Below, piece after piece: positions 1 through 61,139 of a stretch of 64,000 nt of DNA. The notes below the pieces were generated by a model, which made no database searches, had not been told where the DNA came from, and worked only from the letters and a program-made list of their open reading frames with translations. This DNA is from Ginglymostoma cirratum (taxonomy: Eukaryota), in contig JAHRHZ010000146.1 of the NCBI GenBank assembly GCA_024137785.1, positions 85,571 through 149,570 on the forward strand. The letters are read 5' to 3'. The translations under genes and the position numbers were made by a program. How positions within the stretch are numbered: position 1 is the stretch's first letter; every line of letters begins with the position of its first letter.

Positions 1-89
1 ACATTATTCATTACCTCCTGGTATTTTTTTAAACAGTTGCTCAATCATTGCATGGTAACATTTCCACAGGAGAGTGGCAGTATAGTTTT

Positions 90-1105
90 GTGGGAGTAAA
101 ATCATATCTCTCAAAGTTGATTTGAGTTTTTTGAAGAAGTAACCATGAAGACTGAGGTTGGAATAGTACACATTATTAACATGGACTTTAGTAAAGCCTT
201 TGACAAGGTTGTGCATGATAGACTAATTAGTAAATTTAGATCATATGGGACTTGGTGAGTTTGCAAATTGGATACAAAATTGGCTTTATGGTAGGAGAGG
301 TAGGTTGGTGGTGGAGGGTTCTTTTTCAGACTACAGACCTGCGACCAGTGGTGCCCCTCGGGGACTGGTACTGGGGTCCACTTTTGTTTGTTATTTTATA
401 TTTTTATCCAAAACATTCATATGGGAAGCATGGTTAATAACTTTGCAGATAACATCAAAATTGGTGGTATAGTAGACAGTGAAGAAGATTATCTAAAATT
501 ACAAAGAGATCTTGATCATTTGGGTCAATGGGCTGAGGAGTGGCAAATGGAGTTAAATTTGGATAAATATGAGGTATTGTATTTTGGTGAAACAAACAAA
601 GACAGAACTTATACAATTAATGGTAGGGCCTTGGGTAATTTTGTAGAACAGAGAGACCTCGGGGTTCAGGTACATAATTCTTTGAGATTTGCGTTACAGG
701 TGGACAGTTTGGTTAAAAAGGCATTAGCACACTTGCCTTCATCGCTCAGACCTCTGAGTGTAGAAGTTGGGATGTCATATTGAGGTTGTACAGGATGTTG
801 GTGAGGCCTCTTCTGGAGGACTGTGTCCAGTTCTGGTTGCCATGTTATAGGAAGGATAGTATTAAGCTGGAGAGTGTTCAGAAAAGATTCATCGGGATGT
901 TGGAAATGGAGAGCTTGAGATATAAAAATAGACTGGGACTTTTTTCACTGGAGTGTAGGAGGTTGACGGGTGATCTTTACTGAGGTTTATAAAATCATGA
1001 GATGATAGATAAGGTGAATGACAAGGGCCTTTTCCCTGGGGGAGGGAGTTCCAAGCTAGGGGGCATATTTTTAAGGCGAGAGGAGAAAGATTTAAAAAGG
1101 ACATG
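90..1105 (+). mobile_element. CR1 LINE RT fragment
   Basis: MDFSKAFDKV, FADN, RDLGVQV, LEDCVQFW. Confidence 0.9.
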
Positions 1106-2230: not shown

Positions 2231-2713
2231 TTCATTGTCATTTGTTCAACAGTGTTTACTAGTGATACCAATAAAGAATGGCCTAGTCGTGTTTGCTCAG
2301 ATTTTTCTGAGTTCATGGGTGGGGGCTGGCGTGGGTGGGGTGTGGAATGCATGTGTGGAGTTGGAAACCCAGGCAGACTAATCATCATTCTGATGAGCCA
2401 TAGGACAGGCTTGAAGGACGAAATGGTTTGCTTCTGCTCTTATTTTGGACATTTATGATGAACAGGATTAGACATGCATGCAGTGAAAAGCGAGCTCACT
2501 CTGCACGCAAGGTATTTCAGATCTCTTAGAAAAATGACCACAGAGGGTTCGATTCTCTGTTGAGCATCTGGCTGGAACAGTAGCCAGTCCACGTCTAATG
2601 CTAACCACCTCCTTTTGAGCAAAAATCCCAATCCTTGAGGTCATGTTCAAATTGCCATCTCAGCAACTGGTAGCCAATTGAGTCAAACACAAAAAGAGGT
2701 CAGAAGAAAATAT

Positions 2714-2906
2714 TTCAGAGATCGTAGGAACTGCAGATGCTGGAGGATCTGAGATAACAAGGTGTAGAGCTGGATGAACACCGCAGGCCAAGCACCTTCT
2801 TCAGAAAATGGGCTGAAGAAGGGTCTAGGCCCGAAACGTCAGCCTTCCTGCTCCTCTGATGCTGCTTGGTCTGCTGTGTTCATCCAGTTCTACACCTTGT
2901 TATCTG
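2714..2906. mobile_element. Short non-coding PLE-tail fold-back with 12-bp TSD
   Basis: Inverted arms; TSD agaagaaaatat at 2702-2713 and 2907-2918. Confidence 0.85.
2813..2843 (+). ncRNA. Minimal hammerhead ribozyme-like motif (PLE)
   Basis: CTGAAGA-A-GGGTCTAGGCCC-GAAA-CGTC. Confidence 0.65.
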
Positions 2907-3629
2907 AGAAGAAAATATGCCTGACCTTACAAAAAAATCCAGACAAATAAAATAGGCCTTTTCCATCCGCGATTGAAAATGTCGAATGAGGTTTATTTGA
3001 GTTTCACTTCTTCTGACAGGCTGACTGGTCTCACCAGGTCAAGACAATTTTAACCGACAAATGAACTATTTCTACCAGAACAGCCAACTGTATATTGCAT
3101 ATTCTATTCAGCGTTAGGCTTTACAAAAATTCAAATGCATTTTTTGGTGTAAATGGATACCATACTTAAGCATGTTTAGGTTAATTTTCCTGCACATTGT
3201 AACTTGTGTTTCGATAATAAAGATGTGTATCTTGCGGAGACACAGTTCCTTCTGGAACTGCTACTTTGCAGCTGTACAAAACAGTGCAAACTGCATTTTG
3301 TTCTTCTTGCTTAATAGATATTGAATCTGGGAATATTTCTCTCGTCGTTTTCATCATCTTGTTTTTTTGTTTGCTGCAGTTTGTATTGAAGGCAGACGAT
3401 AGAAAATTAATGACGCCATAGACTGACCAGACCATGGTGCTACTCATTCATTGGAAAGCGAGGTATTGTGGGTAAATCACCACAATTTATGTTATTTTGG
3501 CTACTTATTAAGAAAATCATAGACAATCAAATACTGAAACAATAATTGAAATTGATTACATGTAGCAACCAAATATAAGACTGTTCAACTATAAGCCTGC
3601 AACCCAATTTAGCTACGACCAGATTAATA

Positions 3630-8526: not shown

Positions 8527-10405
8527 AATGGTGTCTTGCTGCAATAGTAGGGAGCCTTTATTTGGGACAATTATTCTTGCCAACTTCTACGGTGATCTGG
8601 TCTCCCCAAATCTAAAACAGGTTTCAATTCTGGTTGCGACAGCTCTTTGGTTTCCACCATCATCACCAGCTGTTTCAATTTCAGTCTGGCTGAACTGCAG
8701 GGTCATCCGAGGGTTTTGAAAATGAAGATGTTGGCAAGAGGTTATATCTGGTGGCCAGGAATGGATGCAGACACAGCTGCATTGGTGGGGTCATGTCCAG
8801 AGTGCCAACAAGGGCCAGCATCTCCTCCACGTTCATGGGAATGGCCGTTAAGTTTTGGTTTTGGTTGCGTGTCAACCATGGGCTCAATGTCCTTAATCAT
8901 TGTGATGGCCACTCAAAGCCTGAGTCCAAAATCTTACATTTTCAGTTCTGACTGGAAGTATGTCCAGAAAATTTACAACCACAAGGGTCTCTTCCACTGG
9001 CAGTATCTCTGGTGGTGTATCTGCCAGCGGGAGGCAGCTCAGTGCGTCTGCATTTGCTGCTTGGCCTCCCGGACAGTTTTCCAACTTGCAACTGTATGTA
9101 CTTAGTATTGAGCTCACCGCTGAATTCAGCCTGAAGCAATGAGCAGCACTGCCTTGTCCTCTTTAAGTAGACATAACAGGGGTTTGTGGCTTGTTATTGA
9201 GATAAATTTGTATATGGAAAGGTATTGGTGGAACTTCCTGACTCCAAATATGACTGCCAAATCATCTTTCTCTATGTGGGGATATTTACGCTCTCCACTA
9301 GCCAAAGTCCTGGATGCATACGAGATTGGGCGGACCTCTCCATTGGGTCACCTATGAGCTAATACTACCCCGATGTCATATGGGGAAGCATCGCATGCCA
9401 ATACCACATCTCACTTGGGACTATGGTGTGCAAGCACCTTAAAGGATGATAGGGAAACGTTTCTTCACTTCCCTGAAAGCTATGGCTTGGCTACACAACC
9501 ATTTTCAATGTTGATCCATTTTTAAGAGTTGATGCAAAGGTACCAGGATGGAGGCTAGGTTATGTATGGACTTCCCATAATAATTCACCAAACCAAAGAA
9601 ACTCCTAAGCTCCAGTACTGATGTGGGAGCAGGGCACCTTTGATCAAGCTCACTTTATCTTCCAAGATAACCTGGTCTTGTCAACTCTGCAACACAAAAT
9701 AAGTGATTTGAGGTGCTTGGAACACACATTTTTTTTTCCTTCTCAGGCATGTGCCTGCCAGGGAGAAATGTTTAAGGACTATGTCCAAGTTCTCTAAGTG
9801 CTCCTTATTGGTCTTCCTTGTTATTAACATGTCACAAATAGCAACCTGAGGTAAACCTTGTAAAATATTCTCCATTGTCAGCTGAAAAATTGCACAGAGT
9901 GATGGTACCCCAAATGGCAGTCACGTTTCCTGCTACAGACCCTTATGGGTATTAACTATAGTATACATCTGGGAATCCTTCCCTAACCACAAATGCAATT
10001 ATGCGCAGTTCATGTCCAGCATTGTGAAGGGCAGCCGCCCCTAGTCAGCACTGCATATAAATCCACTTTGTGAGGGAATGGGTATTTTTCCAGCTGGAAT
10101 AGTTTATAATTTATTGAAAATTCCCTCAAAGGTGAAACGACACGTCAGGCTTCACAACCAGTATGACCAGTCCTGCCCAATCCTGGACTGGTTTGATGTT
10201 TCCCTTGCTTACCAGCTTTCTGATTTCTGTCTGTACTTTCACCTGTAATGCCTTACAGAATCGTGGAGTTGATTCCTGGTCAACATGCAATGTGGCCTTG
10301 CCTCCTTTGATAGTCCTTAGATCTTCCTGAAAAATCTCCGGGTACTTAAGTAGGACTTCACTTGGGTAGTCTTTCTCGAGGAATCATTCTCAAATAATCC
10401 TCATA
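8527..10405 (-). mobile_element. Gypsy/Ty3 pol fragment (RT-RNaseH-IN), decayed, with inverted integrase segment
   Basis: Minus strand: MENILQGLPQV..EHLENL, ACDASPY, ANADALS; plus strand ~8685-8900: GHP..MKMLARGYIWWPGMD..CPECQ..WEWP. Confidence 0.85.
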
Positions 10406-11017: not shown

Positions 11018-13362
11018 AGTAGGAACTGCAGATGCTGGAGAATCTGAGCTAACAAGGTGTGGAGCTGGATGAACACAGCAGGCCAAGCAGCATCAGAGAA
11101 GCAGGAAGGCTGACGTTTTGGGCCCAGACCGTTCTTCAGAAATGGGGGAGGGGAAGAGGGTTCTGAAATAAATAGGGAGAGAGGGTGAGGCGAATAGAAG
11201 ATTGATAGAGGAGAGGATAAGTGGAGAGGAGACAGACAAGTCAAAGAGGCGGGGATGGAGCCAGTAAAGGTGAGTGTAGGTGGGGAGGTAGGGAGGAGAT
11301 AGGTCAGTCCAGGGAGGACAGTCATGTCAAGGGGGCGGGATGAGGTTAGTAGATAGGAGGTGGGGGTGTGGTTGAGGTGGGAGGAGGGGATAGGTGAGAG
11401 GAAGAACAGGTTAGGGAGGTGGGGAGGAGTTGGGCTGGTTTTGGGATGCGGTTGGGGGAGAGGAGATTTTGAAGTCTCCACCTACCTAGACTCCATTTTA
11501 ACCCCCTTGATCCAGGAACTCCCTACCTACGTCCATGACACCACCCACGCCCTCCACCTCCTCCAGAACTTACAATTCCCCAGTCCCCAACACCTCATTT
11601 TTACTATGGACGTCCAGTCCCTTTACACCTGTATTCCCCAAGCAGATGGCCTAAAGGCCCTCCGCTTCTTCCTGTCCCACAGACCTGACCAATCCCCCTC
11701 CACCGACACCCTCATCCGCTTAGCCGAACTCGTCCTCACCCTCAACAACTTCTCTTTCAATTCCTCCACTTCCTACAGACAAAGGGGGTGGCCATGGGTA
11801 CCCGCATGGGCCCAAGCTATGCCTGCCTCTTCGTAGGTTATGTGGAACAATCCCTCTTCCGAAGCTACACTGGCCCTAAACCCCACCTCTTTCTCCGTTA
11901 CATTGATGACTGTATCGGCGCCACCTCGTGCTCCCACGAGGAGCTCGAACAGTTCATCCACTTCACCAACACCTTCCACCCCAACCTGGACCATCTCGAA
12001 CACCTCTCTCTCCTTCCTGGACCTCTCAGTCTCCATCTCGGGTAACCACCTAGAAACCGATATCCATTTCAAGCCCACCGACTCCCACAGCTACCTAGGA
12101 TACACCTCCTCCCACCCACCTTCCTGCAAAAATGCCATCCCCTATTCCCAATTCCTTTGCCTCCGTCGCATCTGCTCCCAGGTTGAGACATTCCACTCCC
12201 GTACATCTCAGATGTCCTCATTCTTCAAGGACCGCAACATCCCCCCCGCAGTGGTCGAGAACGCCCTCGACCGTGTCTCCTGCATTTCCCGCAACTCATC
12301 CATCACGCCCCGTCCCGGCAATAACAACTAAAAAAGAATCCCTCTCGTCCTCACGTACCACCCCACCAACCTCTGGATCCAACGCATCATCCTCTGGCAC
12401 TTCCGCCATCTGCAATCAGACCCCACCACCAAAGACATTTTTCCCTCCCCACACTTATCTGCTTTCCAGAAGGACCACTCTCTCCGTGACTCCCTTGTCC
12501 GCTCCACACTCCCCTCCAGCCCCTCCACACCGGCACTTTTCCCTGCAACCGCAGGAAGAACTACACCTGCCCCCACACCTCCTCCCTCAACCCAATCCCA
12601 GGCCCCAAGAAGACTTTCCACATCAAGCAGATGTTCACCTGCACGTCTGCCAATGTGGTATACTGCATCCGCTGTACCCGTTGTGGCCTCCTCTACATCA
12701 GGGAAACCAAGCGGAGGCTTGGGGACCGCTTTGCAGAACACCTGCACTCAGTTCGCAACAAACAACTGCACCTCCCAGTCACGAACCATTTCAACTCCCC
12801 CTCCCATTCCTCAGATGACATTTCCATCCTGGGCCTCCTGCAATGCCACAGTGATGCCACCCGAAGACTGCAGGAACAGCTAATCATATTCAGCCTGGGG
12901 ACCCTGCAGCCCAATGGTATCAATGTGGATTTCACAAGCTTCAAAATCTCCCCTCCCCCAACCGCATCCCAAAACCAGCCCAGCTCGTCCCCGCCTCCCT
13001 AACCTGTTCTTCCTCCCACCTATCCCCTCCTCCCACCTCAAGCCCCACCCCCATCTCCTATCTACTAACCTCATTCCACCCCCTTGACCTGTCCATCCTC
13101 CCTGGACTGACCTATCTCCTCCCTACCCCCCTACCTACACTCACCTTTACTGGCTCCATCCCCGCCTCTTCGACTGCCTCCTCTCCACCTATCCTCTCCT
13201 CTATCCATCCTCTATCCGCCTCCCCCTCTCTCCCTATTTATTTTCGAACCCTCGTCCACTCCCCCATTTCTGATGAAGGGTCTCGGCCCGAAACATCAAG
13301 CTTTCTTGCTCCTATGATGCTGCTTGGCCTGATGTGTTCATCCAGCTCCACACCTTGTTATA
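11018..13362 (+). mobile_element. Penelope-like element, 5'-truncated RT + GIY-YIG + tail, preceded by an inverted copy of the tail
   Basis: MDVQSLYT, AMGTRMGPSYA, RYIDD, FTCTSANVVYCIRC..LYIRETKRRLGDRFAEH; inverted tail 11018-11476. Confidence 0.92.
13270..13300 (+). ncRNA. Minimal hammerhead ribozyme-like motif (PLE)
   Basis: CTGATGA-A-GGGTCTCGGCCC-GAAA-CATC. Confidence 0.62.
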
Positions 13363-16922: not shown

Positions 16923-18770
16923 GTGTTCCACAGAGTGGTCCCCAAGCCTCCGCTTGGTTTCCCCAATTTAGAGGAGGCCGCAACGGGAACAGAGGATGCA
17001 GTATACCACATTGGTAGATGTGCAGGTGAACATCTGTTTGATATAGAAGGTCTTCTTGGGGCCTGGGATGGGGGCGAGGGGGGAGGTGTAGGGGCAGGTG
17101 TAGCACTTCCTGCGGTTGCAGGGAAAAGTGCCGGGTGTGGTTTGGCTGGTGGGAGTGGACAAGGGAGTCACGGGGAGAGTGGAGGAGGCCATCCCTTATT
17201 CCCAATTCCTTCGCCTCTGCCGCATCTGCTCCCGAGGTGAGGCATTCCACTCCCAAGCATCCCAGATGTCCTCGTTTTTCAAGAAGCTATACTATCTCCG
17301 ATCTCTTCCTCCGTTATATCGATGACTGTATCGGCGCCACCTCGTGCTCCCACGAGGAACTCGATCAGTTCACCCACTTCACTAACACCTTCCACCCCAA
17401 CCTTAAGTTCACCTGAAACATCTCTGATGCCTCTCCCTCCTTCTTGGACCTCTCTGTTTCCATCTCTGGCAACCACCTGGAAACCAATATCCATTTAAAT
17501 CCTACCAACTCCCACAGTTACCTAGAATACACCTCCTCCCACCCACCTTCCTGCAAAAAGGCCATCCCCTATTGCCAATTCCTTCGCCTCTGCCACATCT
17601 GCTCCCGACATGAGGCATTCCACTCCCGGTCATCCCAAATGTTCACATTTTTCAAGGGCCACAACTTCCCCTCCACAGTGGTCGAAAATGCCCTTGACCG
17701 TGTCTCTCTCATTTCCCGCAACTAATCTCTGCCCACAATAACAACCAAAACAGAATCCCCCTCGTCCTCATGAACCACTCTACCAACCTCTGGATCCAAC
17801 GTATCATCCTCTGACACTTCTGCCATCTACAATCCGACCCCACTACCAAAGACATATTTCCCTCCTCATCCTTATCTGCTTTCGGGAGGGACTGCTCTCT
17901 CCATGACTCCCTTGTCCATTCCACACTCCCCACAAGCCTCACTACCCCCGGCACTTTTCCCTGCAACTACAGGAGGTACTACACCTGCCCCTACACCTAC
18001 CCCCTCACTCCCATCCCAGGCCCTAAAAAGACCTTCCACATCCATCAGATGTTCACTTGCACATCTGCTAATGTGATATACTGTACCCACTGTTCCAGTT
18101 GTGGTCTCCTGTACAGTGGGGAAACCAAGCGGAGGCTTGGGGACCGCTTTGTGGAACACCTACGCTCGGTTCACAACAAACAACTGCACCTCCCAGTCGG
18201 GAACCATTTCAACTCCCCCTCCCACTCCTCAGACGACATGTCCATCCTGGGCCTCCTGCAGTGCCACAGTGATGCCACCCGAAGACTGCAGGAACAGCAT
18301 CTCATATTTTGCTTGGGAACCCTGCAGCCCAATGGTATCAATGTGGACTTCACAAGCTTCAAAATCTCGCCGCCCCCGACCACATCCCAAAACCAGCCCA
18401 GCTCATCCCCGCCTCCCTAACCTGTCCTCCCACCTATCCACTCCTACCACGCCAAGCCCCACCCCCACCTCCTACCTACTAGCCTCATCCCGCCTCCTTG
18501 ACCTGTCCGTCCTCCCTGGTCCAACCTATCGCCTCCCTAACTCCCTACCTAAGCTCACCTTCACTGGCTCCAACCCTGTCTCCTTGACCTGTCTGTCTCC
18601 TCTCCACCTAACTTCTCCTTTATCCATCTTCTATCCACCCCCCCCTCCCTATTTATTTCAGAACCCCCTTCCCCTCCCCCATTTCTGAAGAAGGGTCGAG
18701 ACGCGAAACGTCAGCCTTCCTGCTCCTCTGATGCTGCTTGGCCTGCTGTGTTCATCCAGCTCTACACCTG
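16923..18770 (+). mobile_element. Penelope-like element with 5' inverted/rearranged segment
   Basis: Minus EN piece 16923-17185, then plus RYIDD...GIY-YIG (ORF 18049-18420) and tail. Confidence 0.9.
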
Positions 18771-26570: not shown

Positions 26571-27307
26571 TTGAGATTGCACAGCAGATCCATTAACAGT
26601 GTTCGACCTTCCAAACCAAGGGAGTTGAAGCCAAAAAATTGGTATTGACTCCTGGGATAGCCATATTTTATTTGATCAGCTACTCATTGTCCAAACCTGT
26701 TGCAATCACCAAGACCATTACCAATTGCAATGATCTAGGAACCACTTGCCATTTGCCACTTTTTTGCCCATTTTCCTTGCCTTTCTACATCTTTCTGCAA
26801 CTTCCCCACTTTGTCACCCCTACCCATCCCTCTACCTGTCGTTGGGTCATCTGTGAACTTGGCTACAGTGCCCTCAGTTCCTTTGCCCAGATCGTTAATG
26901 TATAACGTGAACAGTTATTGTCGCAACATGGACCTGTGGAACTCCACTTGTCCCCAGCTGCCATCCTGAAAAAGACCCCTTTATCCCTACTGTCTGCCTT
27001 TGTCAGTCAGCCAGTCTCACGTTTTAATGAAGATCTGTAGCTCAGGTTGTGGTTGGAGTTATTGGTTGTTTCACCGAGCTGACTGGTTTCCGTGCAAATG
27101 TTTGTTGGTGACCTAGAAAGGAGATGAAATGTTTGCATAAAAACCAGTCAGCTCAGTGAAACATCCAACAACTCCACTCAGCCAGTTCTCTTTCCATGCC
27201 AGTAACTTGCCTGGGCTTACCATGGGCTCTTATCTGGGCTAGCATATTTTATATGGGGCACCTTGTCAAAGGCCTTCTAGAAATCCAGGTAGATCACTGG
27301 TGATGGA

Positions 27308-27532
27308 TAGTAGGAACTGCAGATGCTGGAGAATCTGAGATAACAAGGTGTAGAGCTGGATGAACACAGCAGGCCAAGCAGCATCAGAGGAGCAGGAAGG
27401 CTGATGTTTCGGGTCTAGACCGTTCTTCAGAAATGGATCAGAAGAAGAATCTAGGCCCAAAACACCAGCCTTCCTGCTCCTCTGATGCTGCTTGGCCGGC
27501 TGTGTTCATCCAGCTCCACACCTTGTTATCTC
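27308..27532. mobile_element. PLE-tail fold-back in CR1
   Basis: Two opposed copies of the ctgctcctctgatgctgcttggcc...ccttgttatct tail. Confidence 0.85.
27400..27430 (-). ncRNA. Minimal hammerhead ribozyme-like motif (PLE)
   Basis: CTGAAGA-A-CGGTCTAGACCC-GAAA-CATC. Confidence 0.55.
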
Positions 27533-28615
27533 ACATCCGCTGGTTTTCCTTTGTCTAACTTGATTGTTATTGTCAAAGAATTTATATTTGATTTGTCAGG
27601 CATGACCTGGCCTTCGCAAAGCTATGCTGACTCGACCCTATTTTATCATGCACTTCCAAATACTCTACAATCTCATCCTTAATAATGGACACTAACTTCA
27701 TATCAATGGCTGAATAGTTTCAGAGGTGAGTTGTTTTGACTATGAGCCTACATTACTGAGATTTTAGTTCTGTGCTGCTCTTTCAGAGAGTTCCCAGGCT
27801 GTGGAGTTAGTGTGGCTCCTTCACTGTGGATCTGAATCCATGTCCACTTATTTTTCTGTTTCATCTTTGTATGATCACCTCTCTTTGCAATTGCCTTACT
27901 TTCTTTGACTCTTATACTGGTTATATTCTTGTGAGGTTTTGAATTTCCTTCTTAGTCCTGTTGACAGCTTTAAAATGTTGTGTCTGTTACTGCATCAATG
28001 ACACTAGGTTGACTGCTTTCTGGGGAGAGAAATCAAAGGTCACAACCAGCAAAGGAAACAGGAACAAAAAGAACAATTGCTGAAGAAACTCAACAAGTCT
28101 GGCAGCATTTGTGAAGACACAGCAGATCTCACATTTCAGGTGTAGACATCAGGAATGGTAAAATAAATCAAAGAACCGTGGATGCTGGAGGACTGAATCA
28201 AAATCTTTTCTGAAAAAAGGGGATTGGGCTTAAACTTTGAACCCTGCTCAGATGCTGCCATACCAGTTGAGATTCTCAAGAGATTTCTGCGTCTATTCTA
28301 AAATTTTGGTCCATTTTAACCAGAAGCCTTCGCTGATGAAGGAGCACCGGAGGTTGATGGGAGAAGACTTGGTGCGAATAAGCAAATGGGGAGCGGAATT
28401 TTGGATGAAATCAGGATTACAAGATTATATTATTGGTATGGGAGATCAGCACAGAATGTGTCAGCATAGTTCAGTCGTGAGAGGTTACAATGGAATGGAT
28501 GAGAGTTTGAGCAGTAGATGAGCTGAGACTAGCATGGAGTTGGATGATGTTACAGAGTTAGATGTAGGTGATCTAGATAATGGGGAACTGTGGTTGGGCA
28601 CTCAGTTTGGTGGGA

Positions 28616-28792
28616 CAAAAACAGAAGTTGCTGGAAAAGCTCAGCAGGGCAGCAGCATCGGTGAAGAGAAAATCAGACTGAATGTTTCGGGTCCGGTGAC
28701 TGTTCTGAAAGCTCTGAAACGTGCTGAGCTTTTCTAGTAACTTCTGTTTTTGTTCCTGATTTACAGCATCCACAGTTCTTTTGTTTTGTTTT
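28616..28792. mobile_element. PLE-tail-like fold-back (second family) with 12-bp TSD
   Basis: aaaacagaagttgctggaaaagctcagc / gctgagcttttctagtaacttctgtttt; TSD agtttggtggga at 28604-28615 and 28793-28804. Confidence 0.8.
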
Positions 28793-28919
28793 AGTTTGGT
28801 GGGAAATGTTTCACTTTGGTTGTGACCAGTGTGATTCAGATTGAGACAGTTTACAGGGAGATGGATGGAGTTTGTCACAGTTACAAAGGACGTGCCCTCA
28901 GACTTTCTAACATTTCATC

Positions 28920-37870: not shown

Positions 37871-38709
37871 GGCAGCATGGGCTGTCCAGACCGTAATTAA
37901 TTGCCTTCCATTTCTTATTGAATGTATCTGATTTGTTTTTGAATGCATTGTTTATTTATTGCTTTTACTAGTGTTGGTTTACTTCCCATTTTTTTTCCTT
38001 TCCGCCTCGGTTTCCCTTTATTTTTCTCGTTGCTGCTCCTTTTTGGGCTTTGTCAGCTTAAACCTGTTTCTTCTAGAAAGGCGGGTTTGCAGCAGTAGGC
38101 TGTCTCTGTAGGTGCCATTTGCACAGGGGTCTAGGCCCGACGTCAGCCTTCCTGCTCCTCTGATGCTGCTTGGCCTGCTGTGTTCATCCAGCTCTACACC
38201 GTGTTCTCTGAGTCATTATGACACACCGCCTTACATCCACTTTGTTTCAATTCGAATAAACAAAATAGTGAAAAGAACCAGCCTTCGCATAGTGTTCATC
38301 CTTCTTAATATAAAAGTGTTTCTGTAGCTGTATTTCTTTCAGGGGAGCTTTATAGCTGTGTGATAGGGAGAACTTGACTGCCTTTTTTTAAAATTGGAAC
38401 TCCAGACTCTGGGTTTTGTTTTAAAGAGAGAAAGGTTTTCTTACTTGAAAGAACATAAATTTTAGTGAGAAGGTAGCTTTTTATTGCAGCTGTTCCGTGC
38501 CCAGTCTGCATATATATATATACTCTTCCCACCTTTTATGCTTCAAAGACCACAGATCCACGCATCTAAAACAGCAGCGTTTATTAAAGAGGTCTTTACT
38601 CTACAAGGAAACAAATGAGTCATAACGACAAGCTTAGATAAAAAGCAATGAATAGTGTTATTGTTTGCAACAAGATAGCACTAAAAACACATTCTAATTT
38701 TGAAGAGAT

Positions 38710-38920
38710 TGTAGGAACTGCCGATGCTGAAGTCTGTCATAACAAGGTGTAGAGCTGGATGAACACAACAGGCGAAGGCTGACATTTCGGGTCTAGACCC
38801 TTCTTCTCTTAATTTCTTCTTCATTTCTGAAGAAGGGTCTTGACCCGAAACGTCAGCTTTCCTGCTCCTCTGATGCTGCTTGGCCTGCTGTGTTCGTCCA
38901 GCTCCACAACATTTTATCTC
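38710..38920. mobile_element. PLE-tail fold-back
   Basis: Opposed tail copies with hammerhead core. Confidence 0.85.
38827..38857 (+). ncRNA. Minimal hammerhead ribozyme-like motif (PLE)
   Basis: CTGAAGA-A-GGGTCTTGACCC-GAAA-CGTC. Confidence 0.68.
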
Positions 38921-39478
38921 GAGGCTGAACTCTTGTTTCCTTCCCAAATGGCTGATGACATCATCAGTATGTCATGTGATTGAATTTATAAAGTGACACT
39001 CCAAGATATTATTTAAATATGCAACAATTTGCCAACAATCCCCCCCTTCCCCTTACTTACATTACGGTTTTATGATCCTGGAACTCTGTATTGTGTTCTT
39101 CCTTCAGCAGCCACAGCTCTTAATAGGGCAGTGCTAAGCACAAGAATTGCCAGGCCCTGATTATATTGTATATATTGTAATGCTCAGTAGACAAGATTTG
39201 CACCTGGTGAAATGGATACCACATTGATTCCAGGGAAGGCATTGCCATTTTGAGCTGTTTGTGGTTCGGCAGGCCTTCATTAAAATGCAGCTCAGATTTC
39301 TCATCAATTCTCTAACAGCAGGCAAGTTCCCCAAAACATCATCAAGTTTCCACTCGAAATGGCTGCATTATGTTTTGGAAGCTAGGCCAAAACACACAAA
39401 AGCTATTTTTTTCATGTATTTAAACTGTTATTTTAAATGAAGTTCAGTTTGAATATTCATTTTGTCATTTCTTCATTT

Positions 39479-39509
39479 CTGAAGAAGGGTCCAGACCCGA
39501 AATGTCAGC
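39479..39509 (+). ncRNA. Minimal hammerhead ribozyme-like motif in a solitary PLE tail
   Basis: CTGAAGA-A-GGGTCCAGACCC-GAAA-TGTC. Confidence 0.6.
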
Positions 39510-39689
39510 TTTCCTGCTCCTCTGATGCTGCTTGGCCTGCTGTGTTCATCCAGCTCTCCACCTTGTTATCTCTTATTTCTAATTTTGAAGAGTTTTTTAA
39601 TGTTTCTGCAGCAATGTCTTAATGTCCAGGATATGAAATGTGAATTTTCATTGATTATTGCTGTTTCTGTAAATAAAAATAGTCTGCAG

Positions 39690-42185: not shown

Positions 42186-43896
42186 CTGGAATGTGAGAAG
42201 GAAAAAAGAGAGCGAGGGGAAAAAGGAAGGAAAATTCTGAAGAGTAGAAGCAATGATAGAGACTGTGGTTACGGCAGAGGGGAACGTGTTTAAGAGAAGA
42301 GCTGGAGAAAAAGGTACAACAACAATTTATATTAACCCTTTTGCACAGAGAAACCTCCCAAATATGTCACAGGGGAGTTATGAAACGAAGTTTAACATTG
42401 AACTGACAAAGTAATCCCTCAAACATCTAACACAGAGGTGAGGGTGGAATTTGAATTCTAGTTTTTAAAAAGTCTCGGTTTAAGACTGTAATGATGATCA
42501 TGAAACCATTGCTACTTGTTGGAAAAACCATCTGGTTCATTAATGTCCTTTACGGAAGGAAACTGCCATCCTTACCTGGCCTGGGTTACATGTGACTCCA
42601 GACCCACTGCAATGGGGTTGACTCTGAGCTGCCCTCTGGCCTAGCCATCAACACCCACATTCTGTGAATGTTCTTTTTTAATAACAGGCACAAAAATAAA
42701 ATGTCAGGTGGAGAATTATTTCCTTTTTGAAGGGAGAGAAAGTTGGAGTCCAGAGAGATTTGAAGACAAGAGACACAGTGGGCATACGGGCACCATGGCT
42801 AAATGGTCACTTATGCAGAACAGGAATAAATGAATGCTGCTACCATTATACAGGCATTTGCTGGGACCAGGTCTCTGTGCAGTTCTGACATTCCCCTGTC
42901 GATTTTACACTGAATGGCGGTTACACAGAAAGTTCACTCAGTTTCTCCCTGGAATTAAGGGTTGGCCCTATGGTGGCAGGCAGACTAATTTAGGCCAAGG
43001 TAAGGCAGACTAAGAAGCAATTTCATTCGAACATTGGGGATTGTGGGAACACCACCACCTCCAAGTTTCCCTCCAACTCACTCACCATCCTGACTTGGAA
43101 ATATATCGCTGTCCCTTCACTGTCGCTGGGTCAAAAACCTGGAATTCCCTCCCTAATAGCATTGTGGGTCAACCCACAGCAGGAGGACTGCAGCAGTTCA
43201 AGAAGGCAGCTCACCACCACCTTCTCAAGGGCAACTAGGGATGAACAAGACATGCTGGTCACCCACATCCCACAAATGAATAAAAAAAACTTGACAGAGT
43301 GGACAGCTTGTACCCCCCAGGCTGGGGAATCTATAACACGGGGGCACAGCCTCAGGACGAAGGCCTAATCATTCAGAACTGCACTGAGGAGGAATTACCT
43401 CACTGAATGGGCCATGAGTTTTGTGAAATCTCAACTTTCCCCCCCCTCCCACAAGCGATGTGGAATGCCTGTCGCTGAATATAGTGAAGGCTGTGATCAA
43501 TTCTGCGCACCCTGCCTCAGGTTGGACGTATGGGCCTTAGAATGAGAGCACTGCAGTTTAACCAGAATATCCTTAGAAGGGTGAAATACCGAGGGCAGGT
43601 TACACATTGTGATGCCCAAACAATGGGAAGGGGTAGGGTGGCAGTATTCCTGCCTCTGAGCCAGGAGGCCTGGCTCCAATCCCATCTGCTCCTAGGATGT
43701 GTGATAACATTGTGTGATAACATTGACGAATGGGCTGAGTAGATTGAGGTGTTTAAAATGATGAATGGAATTGATTGGGTCAGTGCAGAAAGACTAATTC
43801 CTCTGGTGAGGGGGGGGGGCAGCACACAACAAGGCGACAAAACCTTGTCAGGCCATTCGGCGGGATATCAGAAAACACGTCTTCAGAAAGAGGGAT

Positions 43897-44026
43897 AATA
43901 GGTACTGCAGATGCTGGAGAACAAGGTTATCTGAAGAAGGATCTAGGCCCGAAACGTCAAGCTTTCCTGCTCCTCTGATGCTGCTTGGCCTGCTGTGTTC
44001 ATCCAGCTCCACACCTTGTTATCTTA
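43897..44026. mobile_element. PLE-tail insertion with short inverted arm and 12-bp TSD
   Basis: TSD agaaagagggat at 43885-43896 and 44027-44038. Confidence 0.8.
43931..43961 (+). ncRNA. Minimal hammerhead ribozyme-like motif (PLE)
   Basis: CTGAAGA-A-GGATCTAGGCCC-GAAA-CGTC. Confidence 0.58.
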
Positions 44027-44289
44027 AGAAAGAGGGATTGGGAACACTCTGCCCCATCCCCACAATACTGAAGCCAGTGCAAATTCCTAAACGGAGATGC
44101 TGGTGGTTTTATTACCGTCAGGGAAGCGGATGAACAGCCAAACAGGTGGTTCCAATGAAGTTAGGTAACAGTTCAATAAGGATCAGTTGGAATGGTGCAA
44201 CACACTACAGGGGCTGAATGGCTTCCTGCTGTTCCCATTCTCTACATCTCTCCCTTTGGATTCCTCTCTTTGACTCCTGAGCCTATATT

Positions 44290-44730: not shown

Positions 44731-47227
44731 TGGTCTGGTGTCTGCAGAGGTAGTCCTGTGAATGGAGAAACTTTAGAGACGATGTTAGTTGCTGGAAGTA
44801 TCTTTGCATTTCTTCTCCCATCACATTCAAGTCAATTTGGGTGGGTGGGCTGGTATTGGCATCCCAGGGTGTTCTGCTGGGTAGGCCATAGACTATTTCT
44901 GCTGCCGAGAGTCCAGTAGTAGAATGGGGTGTTATTCGCATGTGGTACAAAGCTAGGGGCAAAACCTTTAACCAGCTAAGGCCGGTCTCTAACTTCAACT
45001 TGGTCAATTTCGCTTTGAGTGTCCCGTTAGGTTTTTCCACTATCCCTGCCGCCCGGGGGTGGTATGCACAGTGGAATTGCTGCTGGATACGTAATGCATC
45101 ACACGGTTCCTTATTAATCTTTCCTATAAAGTGAGGGCCATTGTCCGAACTAATTTGTCAAGGCACTCCAAACCTCAGTATTATTTCAGTTAATAATAAT
45201 TTTACTACTGTTGAGGCTTTGTGATTTGTCGTTGGAAAAGCCTCTATCCACCTACTGAATACATCTACAATGACAAGACAATATTTATAACTATTTACTC
45301 ACGGTAATTCAATAAAATCTAGCTGAATGCATTCAAACGGGCCACCTGGCAAGGGTGTTTTTCCTGGTGAGCATCTCACCCCCTGACCAACATTGTTTTG
45401 CTGGCATGTTAGACATGATGCTATACAAGACTGGGCTGCCTCAGCCAGTCTGGGGTGCCACCAGGTACGGAGCATGATACCACTCATTCCCTCCTTGCCA
45501 AGGTGGGTGTCAGAATGCAGACAGTCAACAAGCATTGGTAACAAGCATCAGATATACACACACGGCCGACGGGGGTAACCCAAAGGTCTGACGACGCAGA
45601 ATGTGAACATCCATGCGCCTTCCAAATGTCCTTTTCAGAAGCAGGGGCGTCCCCCTGTAAGTGCTGAACAGTGACTATATCGGGCATGCCCGTCTTGTCT
45701 GAAGGAGGCGTTCGATTTACCGCCTGTTTGCTCATAGAGGGCACAATAAAAGTTTGATCCGCAGCAGCCTGTTTGGCAGCCTGATCAGCCCGAGCGTTGC
45801 CCTGAGTAGCTACACAATCGGAGGCATGGGCAGTGCATTTGATAATAGCCAATTGTTTAGGGAAGAGAATCCTCTTCCCCAAGAGAAGCCTGGAGAAGGT
45901 TTTTAAACAAACAGGGAATTCTGGATGGGTGTACCTGAGGACATTAAAAACCCACGCTGAGACCATAACTGGCCAAAGTCGTGGGAGACTCCAAAGGCAA
46001 ACCGAGAGTCGGTGTAAATATTCACTGACTTCCCTGAGGCTAGAATGCAAGCACAGTTACATTAGGGAGCCATGGTCGACAATAATTTACCAAGCCTAAA
46101 AAGGCCCTCATTTGTTTCGGGGTGGTGTGCGCTCCCTCCTTTTGTCCACTAGCGGTCTATTCCGTATTGTGTTTCCTGTTTGTCCGTTTAGTTTTAGACC
46201 TAGTATGACAGAAGATCGGGTCTTTACAAGCCATGGTTTGTCAGGAGGTGCATGTGGGCTGATTACTGAAAGGCTTGGAGATTCTGTAGCAGGAGGTTTG
46301 GGTTGGTCAGCGTACGGTGGCGGTGATAGGGCTACGGGCGATTGCTGAGACTGATGGCAGTGTTGGGGTGCCTCCAGATGTAGGTTGGCCAAGGACGGGT
46401 GGAGGGGGTAGTGGTCCCGATGGGGCAGAGGGGTGCCTTCCCCAGTCCTCCTCGTCTTGCTTATCTGTATCATTATTTTGGAGCAACATCGGCATGCCAG
46501 ATATGTCAGGAGGTACCTCCGATTTTTTATTTTCTGTCAACGCGGCCTGCCGCTCTAATCCCCATTCTTTGTCTCATCTTTCCCTTTCCAGCCTTTCTTG
46601 TTTAACCCTTTCCTGTTCATTCATCTCATGATCCTCACACTGCAGCTTTAAAACAATCCCAAGGTTTAGGTTTTCCCTCACTATCACATGCACTAATCCC
46701 TCTCCTATGTGCATTATCCACCCAACTGGCCAGTTTTGATTTCTCAGTCAGCTCCTCAGCTCTTTTTCTCCAGGATGACATTAACCCTTTCCATTTAATT
46801 CCCGCATTACGTGTCCATATGCCTCTTCTGCTTTAGTACATAGATCGATATCCCACAATCCCCCTAATGGCCAATTCTCATTTCCCAATTTTTTGTTTAG
46901 GCATGCCGACAGACGTCTGTACTGTACTTCCTTTTCGGGGTCATCCAGGCATAACCGATGTAAATGGGTTCCGACACCCGACTTATCTAACGTTTGTCCC
47001 ATTTTTAGCGCTTTTACTTTTTACTTATTTCTATATACTACACCAGTGTCCTTAGTCTCGACACCCACTTCAGGGTCCTGACCTTCGCGTGGGGGATTTC
47101 CCCTCTTAACAACCGTTCTAAGGCAGGGTGATTGAGACAGACAGACATACCTACATCTGAACACTTATTCTACTTTACCAATCTTATACTAACCACAGCC
47201 CCACAGACTTACTTCGTCAATTTTACT

Positions 47228-57350: not shown

Positions 57351-58974
57351 CGTCATCAGTCGTGGGAAAAATGCTAGAGTCCGTTATAAAGGATTTAATA
57401 GACAGCACTTTGAAAAAGTGGGATGTGATTGGAAAGAGAATGGTTTTATGAAAGGGCAATAATGCTTGACAAATTGGCTGAAATTTTTGAGGATCTCACT
57501 AGTAGAATTGATAAGGTGGTATCAGCGTATATGCTTTATTTAACTTTTAGAAGGCTTTCGATAAGGTCCCACATAAAAGATTAGCATGTAAAATTAAAGG
57601 ATGTGAGATTGAAGATAGTTTATTGACATGGATAAAGAGCTGGTTGGCAAAAAGAAACCAAAGAGTAGGAATAAACTTCTTATTTACAAGTGGCAGGTAG
57701 TGACTAGTGGCATACCACAGCAATCGGAACCAGGACCCGAGCTATTCGCAAAATATACTAATGATGCAGATGAGAGAACCACATGTAATTCCTGCAGATG
57801 ATGCGAAGCTGGATGGAGAACGAACTATCAGGAGGGTGCAGAAATGTTTCAATGTGATGTTGACAATTTGAGTGAGTGGGCAAATGTATGGTTTCTTTTT
57901 ACTTGTTATCCATGCGCAGGAGACAGATATGTCAACAAAATGATGCATAGCTCAAATGTTCTTCACAGGAACAAAGGTATTATACTATTCTTACAGTGTG
58001 GAAGTATCTACACTGAATATTTCAACAAATAATGCATTCCAATTGAAACTTTACACTTGGTATCTGGACCCACCACAAGTAAACAGTTAACATTCCAAGT
58101 ATGTTCACATGACTCTTTTATCCGATCATAGTGTCATCGCAATTTACAGCATGGAATCAGGCCCTTCAGCCCAAACTGTCAATTCCACCCAGTTTTCATA
58201 ATTTGAACTAGTCCCAGTTGCCTATGTTTGGTCCATATCCCTCCATACCTCTCCCACCCATCTACCTTCCAAATGTTTCTTAGACAATGAAATTGTACCA
58301 GCCTCCGCCCCCACCTCTGGCAGCCTGTTCCAGACACTTAACACCCTCTGTGTAAAAACATTACCCTTCTGATCCCTTTTGTATCTCTCTGCCGTCACCT
58401 AAAACCAATGTCCTCTTGTTTTCAACTTCCCTACCATGTGGAAAAGCTGTTGCTGTCTATCTTATCTATGCTCCTCATTGTTTTATAAACCTCAAATAAG
58501 GTCATCCCTCAGCCTCCCACACTCCAGTGAGAAAAGTCCCAGCCTATCCAACTTCTTCTTAGAACTCAACTACTCTCCAGTCCAGGTAGTACCCGTGTAA
58601 ATATTTTCTGCACTCTGTCTGGTTTAATAATGTCATTTCTATAGTAGGGTGACCAGAACTGCACGCAGCACTCTGAATGTGGCCTGACCAACGCCTTGTG
58701 CAGCTGCAACAAGATGTCCCGACTCCTATACTCAATGCTCTGATGAATGAAAGCTAGCATGCTGAAAGGATCCTGAAGAAGGGTAATACCTCAAACGTTA
58801 TCTTCTCCTTTCCTCCAGATGCTGCCTGGCTTGCTGTGCTCTTTAGCTTTCTGTTTGTCTACCTTGGATTACAGCATCTGCTGGAATTTGTCACTAACAC
58901 TGAAAGTTTTCTTCACAGCACTGTCTACAAGTGACTCCACTTTCAAGCAGCTATGAACCTGTAACCTGAGATCT

Positions 58975-60130
58975 CAGATGTCCTCGTTCTTCGAGGACCG
59001 CAACTTCCGCCCTGCAGTGGTCGAGAACGCCCTCGACCGTGCCTCCCGCATTTCCCGCAACTCATCCATCACACTCCGTCCCTGCAATAACAACCAAAGA
59101 AGAATCCCCCTCGTCCTCACGTTCCACCCCACCAACCTCCGGATCCAACGCATCATCCTCCGACACTTCCGCCATCTGCAATCCAACTCACCACCAAAGA
59201 CATTTTTCCCTCCCCACCCTTGTCTGCTTTCCAGAGGGACCACTCTTTCCATGACTCCCTTGTCTGCTCCACACTCCCCTCCAGCCCCACCACACCCAGC
59301 ACTTTTCCCTGCAACCGCAGGAAGTGCTATACCTGCCCTCACACCTCCTCCCTCACCACCATCCCAGGCCCCAAGAAGACTTTCCACATTATGCAGATGT
59401 TCACCTGCGCATCTGCTAATGTGGTATACTGCATCCGCTGTACCCATTGTGGCCTCCTCTACATCGGGGAAACCAAGCGGAGGCTTGGGGACCGCTTTGC
59501 AGAACACCTGTTCTCGGTTCGCAATAAACAACTGCACCTCCCAGTCACGAACCATTTCAACTCCCCCCTCCCATTCCTCAGATGACATGTCCATCCTGGG
59601 CCTCCTGCAGTGCCACAACGATGCCACCCGAAGGCTGCAGGAACAGCAACTCATATTCAGCCTGGGAACCCTGCAGCCCAATGGTATCAATGTGGATTTC
59701 ACAAGCTTCAAAATCTCCCCTCCCCCGACCGCATCCCAAAACCAGCCCAGCTCATCCCCGCCTCCCTAACCTGTTCTTCCTCTCACCTATCCCCTCCTCC
59801 CACCTCAAGCTGCACCCCCATTTCCTACCTACTAACCTCATCCCGTCCCCTTGACCTGTCCGTCCTCTCTAGACTGACCTATCTCCTCCTTACCTCCCCA
59901 CCTACACTCACCTTTACTGGCTCCATCCCCGCCTCTTTGATTTGTCTGTCTCCTCTCCACCTATCCTCTCCTCTATCCATCTTCTATCCGGCTCCCCCTC
60001 TCTCCCTAATTATTTCAGAACATTCTTCCCCTCTGCCATTTCTGATGAAGGGTCTAGGCCCGAAATGTCAAGCTTTCCTGGTCCTATGATGCTGCTTGGC
60101 CTGCTGTGTTCGTCCAGCTCTATACCTCGT
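58975..60130 (+). mobile_element. Penelope-like element, 5'-truncated, 13-bp TSD, inserted in CR1
   Basis: GIY-YIG ORF 59220-59585, tail; TSD taacc(t/c)gagatct at 58962-58974 and 60131-60143. Confidence 0.92.
60042..60072 (+). ncRNA. Minimal hammerhead ribozyme-like motif (PLE)
   Basis: CTGATGA-A-GGGTCTAGGCCC-GAAA-TGTC. Confidence 0.62.
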
Positions 60131-61139
60131 TAACCCGAGATCTATTTGTTTCATAAGACTTTCCAGGGCCCTACCATTGACTGTGTAAGTCCTGTGCTGG
60201 GTTGACCTATTGAAATGCAACACCTTGCATTTGTTTAAATTGAACTCCATCTAATATTCCTCAGCCCACTGGCCCATTGATTAAGACCTTACTACATTCC
60301 CAGATAACCTCCTTCACTGTCCTCTCAGTGTCACCCGCAAACTTACTAACAATGTCTGCTAAATTCACATCCAAAACATTTATATAAATGAAAAATAATA
60401 GTGGACACAGCACAAATCCCTGTGGCACACCACACTCCAGATGAAATACGACCCTCTACCACCACTCTCTGTCTTCCACCTTCAAGCCAATTTTGTATCC
60501 AATTAGAGTCATAGTCATAGAGTGGGACAGCATGGAAACAGACTCTTCAGTCTAACTTTTCCATGCCGACTAGATATCCCAAATTAATCTAGTCCCAGCC
60601 CATCCAGATGCCTTTCAAATGTTGTTATTGTACCAGCCTCTGCCACTTCCTCTGGCAGTTCATTCCATACACGCACCAACTTCTGTGTGAAAAAGCTACC
60701 CCTTAGATGGCTTTTAAATCTTTCCCCTCACACATTAAACTTATGCCCTCTAGTTTTGGACACCCCTATCCAGGGAAAAAACTGCCTATTCATCCTATCC
60801 ATGCCCCTCATGATTATATAAACTTCTATAAGATCACCCCTCAGCATCTGACGCTCCAGGGAAAACAGCCCCAGTCCATTCAGCCTCTCCCCGTAGCTCA
60901 AACCCTGGTAACATCCTCGTAAATCTTTTCTGAACCCTTTCAAGTTTCACAACATTTTTCCTATAGCAGGCAGGCCAGAACTGAATGCACTATTCCAAAA
61001 GTGGCCTAACCAATGTCCTGTACAATAAAGGCAATGGTACCAAATGCCTTCTTCACTATCCTTTCTACCTGTGACTCCACTTTCAAGGAGCTATGAACCT
61101 GCACCCTAAGGTCTCTATTTGTTCAGCTAGCTCTCAAAG

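What the first reader, a model, noticed from the sequence alone, without database searches (positions are those of the whole stretch)
2702..2918. Self-contained ~190-bp non-coding hairpin element with hammerhead core and its own TSD
Seen: two opposed copies of the Penelope-like 3' tail, no ORF, one CTGAAGA..GAAACGTC core, and a perfect 12-bp TSD. The same architecture recurs at 27308, 28616, 38710 and 43897. Known: Penelope-like elements carry minimal hammerhead motifs and often have inverted terminal copies. Inferred: these may be a non-autonomous ribozyme-bearing fold-back family mobilised in trans, or extreme 5'-truncation/inversion products. The differing arm junctions between copies favour the latter.
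Basis: partly seen in the sequence, partly recalled or inferred. Interest (0 to 1): 0.7.

Follow-up and report, generated by a model that had tools for sequence, protein, structure and literature searches.

The report
Back-to-back Penelope retrotransposon stub
This short DNA hairpin is two back-to-back stubs of a known kind of jumping gene (a Penelope-like retrotransposon) that landed as one insertion, not a mobile element of its own; its lopsided ends likely record the enzyme copying its RNA from both cut DNA strands at once.

Summary
Bases 2714-2904 are two head-to-head stubs of the terminal repeat (pLTR) of an abundant Neptune-type Penelope-like element. One stub carries the 33-nt tail and the other does not. 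Four paralogous empty sites confirm the target-site duplication; two of them indicate it was 14 bp, of which 12 are still perfect.

It is not a self-propagating family. Both of its junctions occur once in the 4.36-Gb genome, and 72 sampled fold-backs have 71 different junctions. The commonest junction among the top hits (127 exact copies) occurs in both polarities. The stubs also lack the sequence that lies downstream of the RT start sites. This copy's hammerhead has lost helix I.

The layout (inverted pLTR, one-sided tail, TSD) is published. Added here: tail-plus-short pairing, 14-15-bp TSDs with a symmetric T-rich bias at both nicks, arms that usually share subfamily variants and length class, and 41-42% of arms stopping at the hammerhead's 5' edge in two families. 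Best model (inferred): both nicked strands prime cDNA at two sites 33 nt apart, run off the RNA's 5' end and are end-joined.

This scan noted the same thing before (103 notes, at least 14 genomes).

The parts
2700..2713 (.). Left target-site duplication (14 bp with one changed base; 2702-2713 is the perfect 12 bp)
   Evidence: target present once at 4 of 4 paralogous empty sites (12-mer exact in 3, one mismatch in 1)
2714..2794 (-). Tail arm: inverted pLTR piece r131 to r51 (r1 = first C of CTGAAGA); 2714-2750 is the tail beyond the short end
   Evidence: 3 mismatches in 81
2795..2812 (-). End of the tail arm after a ~40-nt internal deletion: r10 to r-6, the 5' box of a second hammerhead, ending at the family's truncation hot spot
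   Evidence: both flanking junctions occur once in the genome
2813..2904 (+). Short arm: pLTR r1 to about r92-94, without tail
   Evidence: 4 mismatches in 94
2813..2840 (+). Minimal type I hammerhead core (CUGAAGA, unpaired A, 4-bp helix II, GAAA, CG, UC); predicted cut after 2840; the helix I 5' strand is replaced by junction bases
   Evidence: matches the min-HHR described in PMC4209133; no Rfam hammerhead hit
2905..2918 (.). Right target-site duplication (matches the empty-site sequence of 2 of 4 paralogues over all 14 bp)
11018..13361 (.). Long version of the same layout: tail arm 11018-11474 (-) head to head with a 1.9-kb short-ended copy 11475-13361 (+) carrying broken RT and GIY-YIG frames; the two arms differ at 4 subfamily sites
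17303..18769 (+). 5'-truncated coding copy of the parent element
58971..60132 (+). 5'-truncated coding copy; GIY-YIG (PF01541, E 1.4e-4, 22.5 bits against cut-off 22.6) and the CX2-5CxxC linker
27306..27536 (.). Fold-back of the same family (tail arm r-5..125, short arm r0..98), no clean TSD
43885..44038 (.). Fold-back with a 31-nt tail arm and a full short arm; TSD 43885-43896 / 44027-44038
38692..39592 (.). Composite: tail arm, short arm, ~550 bp of local DNA, second short arm; 16-bp TSD 38692-38707 / 39577-39592
28604..28804 (.). Fold-back of a second, more diverged family with the same layout; TSD 28604-28615 / 28793-28804

Best explanation
It is a single insertion made of two head-to-head stubs of the terminal repeat of a Neptune-type Penelope-like retrotransposon, likely dead on arrival and likely made by reverse transcription primed from both nicked strands of the target. 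SHOWN: arm identity and layout, the TSD (empty sites), unique junctions, a parent unit of about 3.5 kb whose ORF starts at r167 just past the tail, and two fixed 3' ends about 33 nt apart (near r94 and r127, each just after TATCTC). INFERRED: (1) the GIY-YIG endonuclease, probably as a dimer, nicks both strands 14-15 nt apart, leaving two 3' overhangs. (2) Each overhang pairs with 1-3 nt of element RNA and primes cDNA at an internal start, one at the tail site and one at the short site, usually on the same RNA or the same source copy. (3) When priming is in the 5' pLTR of the transcript, synthesis runs off the RNA's 5' end at about r-3, an initiator-like A at the 5' edge of the hammerhead (my odds for a transcript start 55%, an RT stop 25%, an endonuclease cut 20%). 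(4) The two cDNA ends are joined by host end-joining with microhomology or short locally templated inserts. The hammerhead is a passenger; in this copy helix I cannot form and no role for cleavage is indicated.
For: Identity: arms 96% identical to the pLTR of long copies in the window. The parent has RT (PF00078, E 2e-5, below Pfam's cut-off), DKG, a CX4CxxC linker and GIY-YIG with two internal cysteines, and a unit of 3,515 nt between successive cores. Geometry: among 201 junction-unbiased insertions, 72 are head-to-head and 1 has the bare tail-to-tail pattern. End pairing among the 72 is tail+short 54, tail+other 13, short+short 3, other 2, tail+tail 0. TSD of 11 bp or more in 45 of 55 young fold-backs against 1 of 150 shuffled flank pairs; mode 14-15 in 73 of 93 tail+short fold-backs over all loci. 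Both nick positions show the same T-rich bias on the nicked strand (T at +3..+5: 90/219 and 91/219 against 29% background, p about 1e-4 each). Mean microhomology is about 2.0 nt at the tail end and 1.7 nt at the short end in 60 of 70 with a TSD. Arms share non-reference bases at 1.75% against 0.51% in 500 permutations (maximum 0.89%). Long arms pair with long arms: 6 of 9 against 0 of 63, p = 5e-7. Hot spot: 82 of 198 arms start at r-6..+3, and 39 of 92 at r-8..+3 in a second family with a different upstream sequence. 7 of 20 copies selected for the ORF start also begin at r-5..+4. In vitro, an anole PLE cleaves and extends both strands, starts RT at two internal sites that bound the tail, and is predicted to be a dimer (PMC11167929).
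Against: No biochemical or RNA 5'-end data were obtained; only assembled contigs were available. In the wider, partly selected set, 5 of 110 fold-backs scored tail+tail. Most such rows are inverted arms next to a pLTR that reads on into the ORF, but L250 is a plain tail+tail case. [quoted passage not shown] 9 of 60 fold-backs differ at 2 or more subfamily sites between arms, so 'same RNA' cannot be universal. Several long pairs have near-equal arm lengths (-1235/-1146, -583/-555, -144/-144), which suits a snap-back origin as well. The 2702 tail arm includes CCC upstream of the proposed start A, and 5 of the 20 ORF-start copies run upstream of r-6 without a break. No clear cap-derived G was seen. 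TSD lengths were found by maximal extension with up to one mismatch, so they include microhomology.
Confidence: 0.65

Rival explanations
1. Snap-back (self-priming): one cDNA is made from the tail site, its 3' end folds back and copies itself, and the new strand is trimmed or stops at r94 before joining the other target end. This resembles the self-priming proposed for Adineta vaga PLEs.
For: It explains tail+short pairing, shared variants, long/long coupling and near-equal arm lengths in some long pairs. PMC3846280 reads the inverted junction palindromes as self-priming.
Against: The copied arm cannot start upstream of its template, yet the short arm starts more than 5 nt upstream of the tail arm in 25 of 63 short fold-backs, against 21 the other way. 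Later deletion would have to rescue these. Some insertions have arms of different subfamilies (11018: 4 discordant sites). The short end is also the end of 52 single-arm copies and carries primer-like microhomology.
Confidence: 0.2
2. The short palindromes are collapsed remains of long head-to-head insertions whose centres were deleted after insertion.
For: Long fold-backs with the same ends exist (10 of 72 exceed 300 bp). The 2702 tail arm has an internal deletion. Junctions are diverse.
Against: Deletion does not predict a sharp stop at r-6..+3, which is also seen in single-arm copies that are not palindromes and in two families. 15 of 63 short fold-backs have both arms at the hot spot.
Confidence: 0.1
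3. A non-autonomous, ribozyme-bearing fold-back family (retrozyme- or MITE-like) that is transcribed and mobilised as a unit.
For: Very high copy number (roughly 8-9 x 10^4 fold-backs, scaled from 20 in 470 kb), TSDs, one recurrent junction with 127 exact copies, and one pair of loci sharing a complex junction.
Against: Both junctions of this copy occur once, and there are 71 distinct junctions among 72. The shared-junction pair has only 2 copies, 41 kb apart, with different outer ends, as expected of local gene conversion. There is no tandem repeat, helix I is lost, and 5' ends do not pile up at the hammerhead cut (8 of 198 at r27-31). The sequence downstream of the RT starts, needed on the template in the anole system, is absent.
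Confidence: 0.04

Closest known systems
Insertion units of endonuclease-bearing Penelope-like elements with an inverted pLTR, one-sided 30-40-bp tail and TSD (Adineta vaga Pen2a, PMC3846280; general scheme in PMC8557442)
   Same: Head-to-head inverted 5'-truncated copy, tail at one end only, TSD, hammerhead in the pLTR, ORF start just past the tail
   Different: Here the whole insertion is only the two pLTR stubs (about 190 bp), present in tens of thousands of copies, with 14-15-bp TSDs (8-10 bp in the rotifer cases read) and a fixed 5' stop
Poseidon element PAc of Anolis carolinensis, in vitro (PMC11167929)
   Same: Two RT start sites bounding the tail, both strands cut and extended, minimal hammerhead not needed for insertion
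   Different: Other clade (this parent has the CX2-5CxxC linker). Here the hammerhead and tail lie upstream of the ATG rather than inside the ORF. Genomic copies show 1-3 nt of microhomology and tail+short pairing, which were not reported in the parts read
Minimal hammerheads of metazoan PLEs (PMC4209133)
   Same: CUGANGA, unpaired base, helix II, GAAA, palindromic CG, UH; mostly single and tied to truncated PLEs; that paper already notes pairs 100-700 bp apart on opposite strands in Schistosoma
   Different: In this copy helix I is destroyed by the arm junction and only one core is complete
Animal non-LTR retrozymes (PMC7229834; bioRxiv 10.64898/2026.07.22.740005)
   Same: Non-coding, pLTR-related, type I hammerhead
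   Different: Retrozymes are direct tandem repeats with two or more hammerheads and make circular RNA; this is an inverted pair with one incomplete hammerhead and no lineage
Twin priming of LINE-1 (recalled, not read)
   Same: Both target-strand nicks prime cDNA, giving an inverted 5' part and a TSD
   Different: In L1 the two cDNAs cover different parts of one RNA; here both arms cover the same sequence and start at two fixed sites 33 nt apart

Membership tests
EN+ Penelope-like element (parent family) | Single ORF with RT and C-terminal GIY-YIG | tested here: met
   RT PF00078 E 2e-5 and 4e-4 and GIY-YIG PF01541 E 1.4e-4, all slightly or clearly below Pfam cut-offs; found in separate broken copies in the order RT then EN; no intact full ORF among the 20 ORF-start copies
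EN+ Penelope-like element (parent family) | [quoted passage not shown] | tested here: met
   ADKG in P0001; VYCIRCTHCGLLYIGET and downstream histidines
EN+ Penelope-like element (parent family) | pLTR at both ends, containing a hammerhead and leading into the ORF | tested here: met
   The sequence past the tail reads into an ATG at r167; second core 3,515 nt downstream
EN+ Penelope-like insertion unit | Inverted 5'-truncated copy, 30-40-bp tail at one end, TSD | tested here: met
Neptune clade | CX2-5CxxC motif in the RT-EN linker (absent from Penelope/Poseidon, shared with Nematis) | tested here: met
   CNRRKCYTC; criterion from PMC8557442
Neptune clade | Placement in an RT tree with reference PLEs | not tested
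   No reference PLE proteins were fetched, so Nematis is not formally excluded
Minimal type I hammerhead | Core boxes, helix II and palindromic 15.2-16.2 pair | tested here: met
   2813-2840
Minimal type I hammerhead | Helix I of 4-5 bp | tested here: not met
   At 2809-2812 TGGG faces AGCC; the minimum-energy fold of 2803-2860 instead pairs the core with UCAGCC. The parent consensus has a weak helix I and family 2 a perfect 4-bp one
Minimal type I hammerhead | Self-cleavage as a dimer | not testable with these tools
   Needs an in vitro assay
Non-LTR retrozyme | Direct tandem units, each with a complete hammerhead | tested here: not met
   Inverted pair with one core; definition
Non-LTR retrozyme | Linear and circular monomer RNA | not testable with these tools
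   Only contigs were available, with no run on record as RNA
Self-propagating non-autonomous family (MITE- or SINE-like) | Dispersed copies share the same internal junction and ends | tested here: not met

The most novel reading that the evidence does not exclude
These tens of thousands of stubs are a genome-scale record of the unresolved Penelope insertion mechanism: an endonuclease-RT dimer cuts both strands 14-15 nt apart and primes two cDNAs on one RNA at sites 33 nt apart, and the short copies are integrated 'strong-stop'-like run-offs from the 5' pLTR, whose transcript begins at the first base of the hammerhead's helix I. This one step would account for the inverted pLTR, the one-sided tail and, by strand transfer to the 3' pLTR, the partial tandems.
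Probability: 0.4. Interest if true: 0.6.

Novelty: new member of a known kind. Interest (0 to 1): 0.33.

Why it matters
As an object it is ordinary: one of roughly 10^5 dead stubs, and a caution that such hairpins can be mis-annotated as MITEs, retrozymes or miRNA precursors (Rfam returns only sub-threshold miRNA hits). Its value is as evidence. The papers read call the origin of PLE tandem and inverted structures and of the tail undefined (PMC8557442), and the one in vitro system shows two RT starts and two-strand extension without linking them to the inverted copy (PMC11167929). The counts here give specific predictions for that system: a 14-15-nt stagger, tail+short pairing, and run-off at a fixed 5' end.

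Tried and rejected
Rfam: no match at gathering score in the window; only sub-threshold miRNA and snoRNA hits at the element, rejected as hairpin artefacts.

Hammerhead cleavage as the source of 5' ends: suggested by the biased top hits, rejected in the unbiased set (8 of 198 at r27-31, 1 at r29).

A splice acceptor as the hot spot: family 2 has an AG at r-3/-2, but truncated copies mostly keep that A (23 of 39) and family 1 has no AG there.

Cap-derived G: not evident.

RNA: no RNA holder listed. Laying 4 contig sets of guessed-RNA runs showed only that family sequence is present and cannot show starts, strand or level; used neither for nor against.

PDB search with the RT region found nothing at E <= 1. 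The look-up of earlier findings by sequence was empty.

I first noted the 550 bp inside the 38692-39592 composite as host-like DNA with one paralogue elsewhere. The paralogue turned out to be a duplicated segment, so the piece is a local rearrangement rather than a long-range capture.

Not in print as far as searched: searches returned no paper on these stubs in cartilaginous fish or on twin priming in PLEs. Subscription papers, repeat databases and all supplements were not seen and may describe them.

Full report
Setting. The window is G000:C146:85571-149570 of a 4.36-Gb genome. No call names the organism; 'shark-like' is my inference from genome size and repeats, and earlier AI notes say the same. 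Coordinates 'r' count from the first C of CTGAAGA in a family reference built from the window and fetched loci.

1. Observation. Bases 2702-2918 read: direct repeat (2702-2713), minus arm r131 to r51 (2714-2794), an 18-nt minus piece r10 to r-6 (2795-2812), plus arm r1 to about r92-94 (2813-2904), direct repeat (2907-2918). The arms are 96% identical to the reference and the RNA hairpin is far beyond chance (z = -10.1). Each flank has four paralogues elsewhere in the genome, all without the insert and with the target present once. Two of them read TGAGAAGAAAATAT, so the duplication was probably 14 bp and the left copy later changed. The hammerhead core, helix II and the palindromic CG are intact at 2813-2840, but the junction replaced the 5' strand of helix I, and the local fold sequesters the core. 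Rfam has no hammerhead hit. Of the four other sites named, 43897 fits, 27308 lacks a clean TSD, 28616 belongs to a second family, and 38710 is part of a larger composite.

2. Parent. The same sequence ends three long copies in the window that encode broken RT and GIY-YIG frames. In copies that read past the tail it continues into an ATG at r167, and full-length units have a second core 3,515 nt later. The sequence is therefore the pLTR: 5' leader and 3' end at once. DKG, a CX4CxxC linker and the CCHH-type endonuclease point to Neptune or Nematis by the criteria of PMC8557442; no tree was built. A 22-mer of the pLTR has 96,856 exact copies. Scaling from 80 arbitrary 10-kb stretches (470 kb after N; 45 insertions, 20 fold-backs, 22 exact 22-mers) gives about 2 x 10^5 insertions and 8-9 x 10^4 fold-backs, a rough figure.

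3. Sample. One search found 229 insertions after dropping those within 80 bp of a locus edge or with N within 60 bp. 28 top hits to the query were set aside, leaving 201 unbiased for junction; many of these were anchored on the exact 22-mer, which favours young copies. Of the 201, 72 are head-to-head fold-backs, 52 single short-ended, 48 single tail-ended, 18 other singles and 11 complex. 3' ends cluster near r92-97 and r127-133, each just after TATCTC, 33 nt apart.

4. Is it a self-propagating family? No. Both junctions of this copy occur once in the genome, and 72 fold-backs have 71 junction strings. The one shared junction belongs to two loci 41 kb apart with different outer ends and occurs nowhere else, even with one mismatch; local gene conversion is the likeliest cause. 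The junction that recurred among the top hits has 127 exact copies, sits on a CTGA/TCAG microhomology, spans several subfamilies and occurs in both polarities: 12 and 5 among 30 read, the other 13 being incomplete or atypical. 5' ends do not accumulate at the ribozyme cut (8 of 198 at r27-31). In the anole system the template needs RNA downstream of the RT starts and hammerhead cleavage is dispensable; these stubs lack the downstream sequence.

5. How they are made. Fold-backs pair a tail end with a short end (54 of 72; none tail+tail). In all loci, including selected ones, the count is 93 tail+short, 5 tail+tail, 3 short+short and 9 other of 110; most tail+tail rows are inverted arms beside a pLTR that reads on into the ORF, and L250 is a true exception. 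TSDs of 11 bp or more mark 45 of 55 young fold-backs against 1 of 150 shuffled pairs, with mode 14-15 (73 of 93). Single arms show one less often (7 of 40 and 10 of 44 with a narrow search). The DNA just 3' of each inferred nick is T-rich on the nicked strand, equally on both sides, and both element ends show about 2 nt of microhomology to the target. Two nicks 14-15 nt apart give two 3' overhangs, and extending each with minus-strand cDNA yields exactly this head-to-head layout with a TSD. The arms usually come from one source: shared variants exceed all 500 permutations, only 9 of 60 differ at two or more subfamily sites against 57% if paired at random, and long arms go with long arms (6 of 9 against 0 of 63). 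Junctions show overlap in 19, blunt joins in 7 and inserts in 46 of 72, and several inserts copy nearby element sequence, as polymerase-theta end-joining would (the enzyme is my inference from recalled knowledge).

6. The 5' stop. 82 of 198 arms start at r-6..+3. In the second family, with a different upstream sequence, 39 of 92 start at r-8..+3. Both families have CA at r-4/-3 in a context matching the initiator consensus YYANWYY (consensus recalled), and r-3 is also the first base of helix I. Drosophila Penelope has an internal promoter with an initiator in this region (PMC2377424 passages). 7 of 20 copies selected for the ORF start begin at r-5..+4 as well, while 5 run on upstream as partial tandems. 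I read the stop as the transcript's 5' end, reached when RT starts in the 5' pLTR. An RT barrier or an endonuclease cut (the anole enzyme prefers ATT near the ORF-pLTR junction) remains open. No RNA data could test this.

7. Against my reading. Snap-back copying explains the pairing, shared variants and near-equal long arms, and self-priming has been proposed in print. It needs later deletion to explain the 25 of 63 short fold-backs whose short arm starts upstream of the tail arm, and it does not explain arms of different subfamilies. The anole study saw no strand difference in RT start. The 2702 tail arm includes three C upstream of the proposed start.

8. Prior knowledge. The layout is described (PMC3846280, PMC8557442), and opposed min-hammerhead pairs 100-700 bp apart were noted in Schistosoma (PMC4209133). 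It fails the retrozyme definition. What I saw of each paper: PMC11167929 parts 1-2 of 4; PMC4209133 parts 1-2 of 4; bioRxiv 10.64898/2026.07.22.740005 parts 1-3 of 5; passages only of PMC8557442, PMC3846280, PMC8969392, PMC2377424 and PMC7229834; no supplements. L1 twin priming is recalled. This scan holds 103 similar notes in at least 14 genomes. I read them after writing my model in the notebook; they agree and are not independent support. One of them names the Penelope/Poseidon clade for another genome, whereas the linker motif here points away from that clade.

9. Verdict. A real feature and a new member of a known kind. The object is ordinary; the population statistics make a long-open mechanistic question testable. 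Interest 0.33.

Noticed in passing
window 38692-39592 and L296 (G000:C19:28762721-28766243): Composite insertion with one inverted and two direct pLTR stubs around ~550 bp of local DNA and a 16-bp TSD. In an 82-88% identical paralogous segment the target is single, and the 550 bp with its upstream stub lies about 90 bp earlier, so a local block was relocated into the new insertion.
   Followed up: partly
L205, L207-L211, L221, L224, L229, L277, L281, L282, L284, L287, L290, L291: Mini-elements with two direct pLTRs around only the first 0.1-0.7 kb of the leader and ORF. They carry up to two hammerheads in tandem and keep the sequence downstream of the RT starts, so they, not the fold-backs, are the candidates for retrozyme-like or non-autonomous templates; their junctions differ from one another.
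   Followed up: partly
window 28604-28804 and many loci: A second, more diverged family with its own pLTR, a perfect 4-bp helix I, ends near r98 and r133, the same 5' stop, and 28 fold-backs in the loci held. Its coding part was not examined.
   Followed up: partly
L117:1365-1539 and L118:1371-1567: Two fold-backs 41 kb apart in opposite orientation share one complex junction found nowhere else; likely gene conversion.
   Followed up: yes
window 55051-56541 (+): Open 496-aa frame with RVT_1 (E 1.4e-35), a well-preserved LINE copy, CR1-like by recall; many decayed relatives in the window.
   Followed up: no
window 2420-3250: The flanks belong to a low-copy duplicated segment with four paralogues at 83-97% identity on contigs C7, C85 and C172.
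   Followed up: partly
window 2390-2424 (+): A CTGATGAG...GAAA pattern match 300 bp upstream of the element, not part of the pLTR family; probably chance.
   Followed up: no
window 45484-46056 (-) and 8596-9105 (+): Decayed frames that look like pieces of LTR-type retroelement pol genes by eye; not tested.
   Followed up: no
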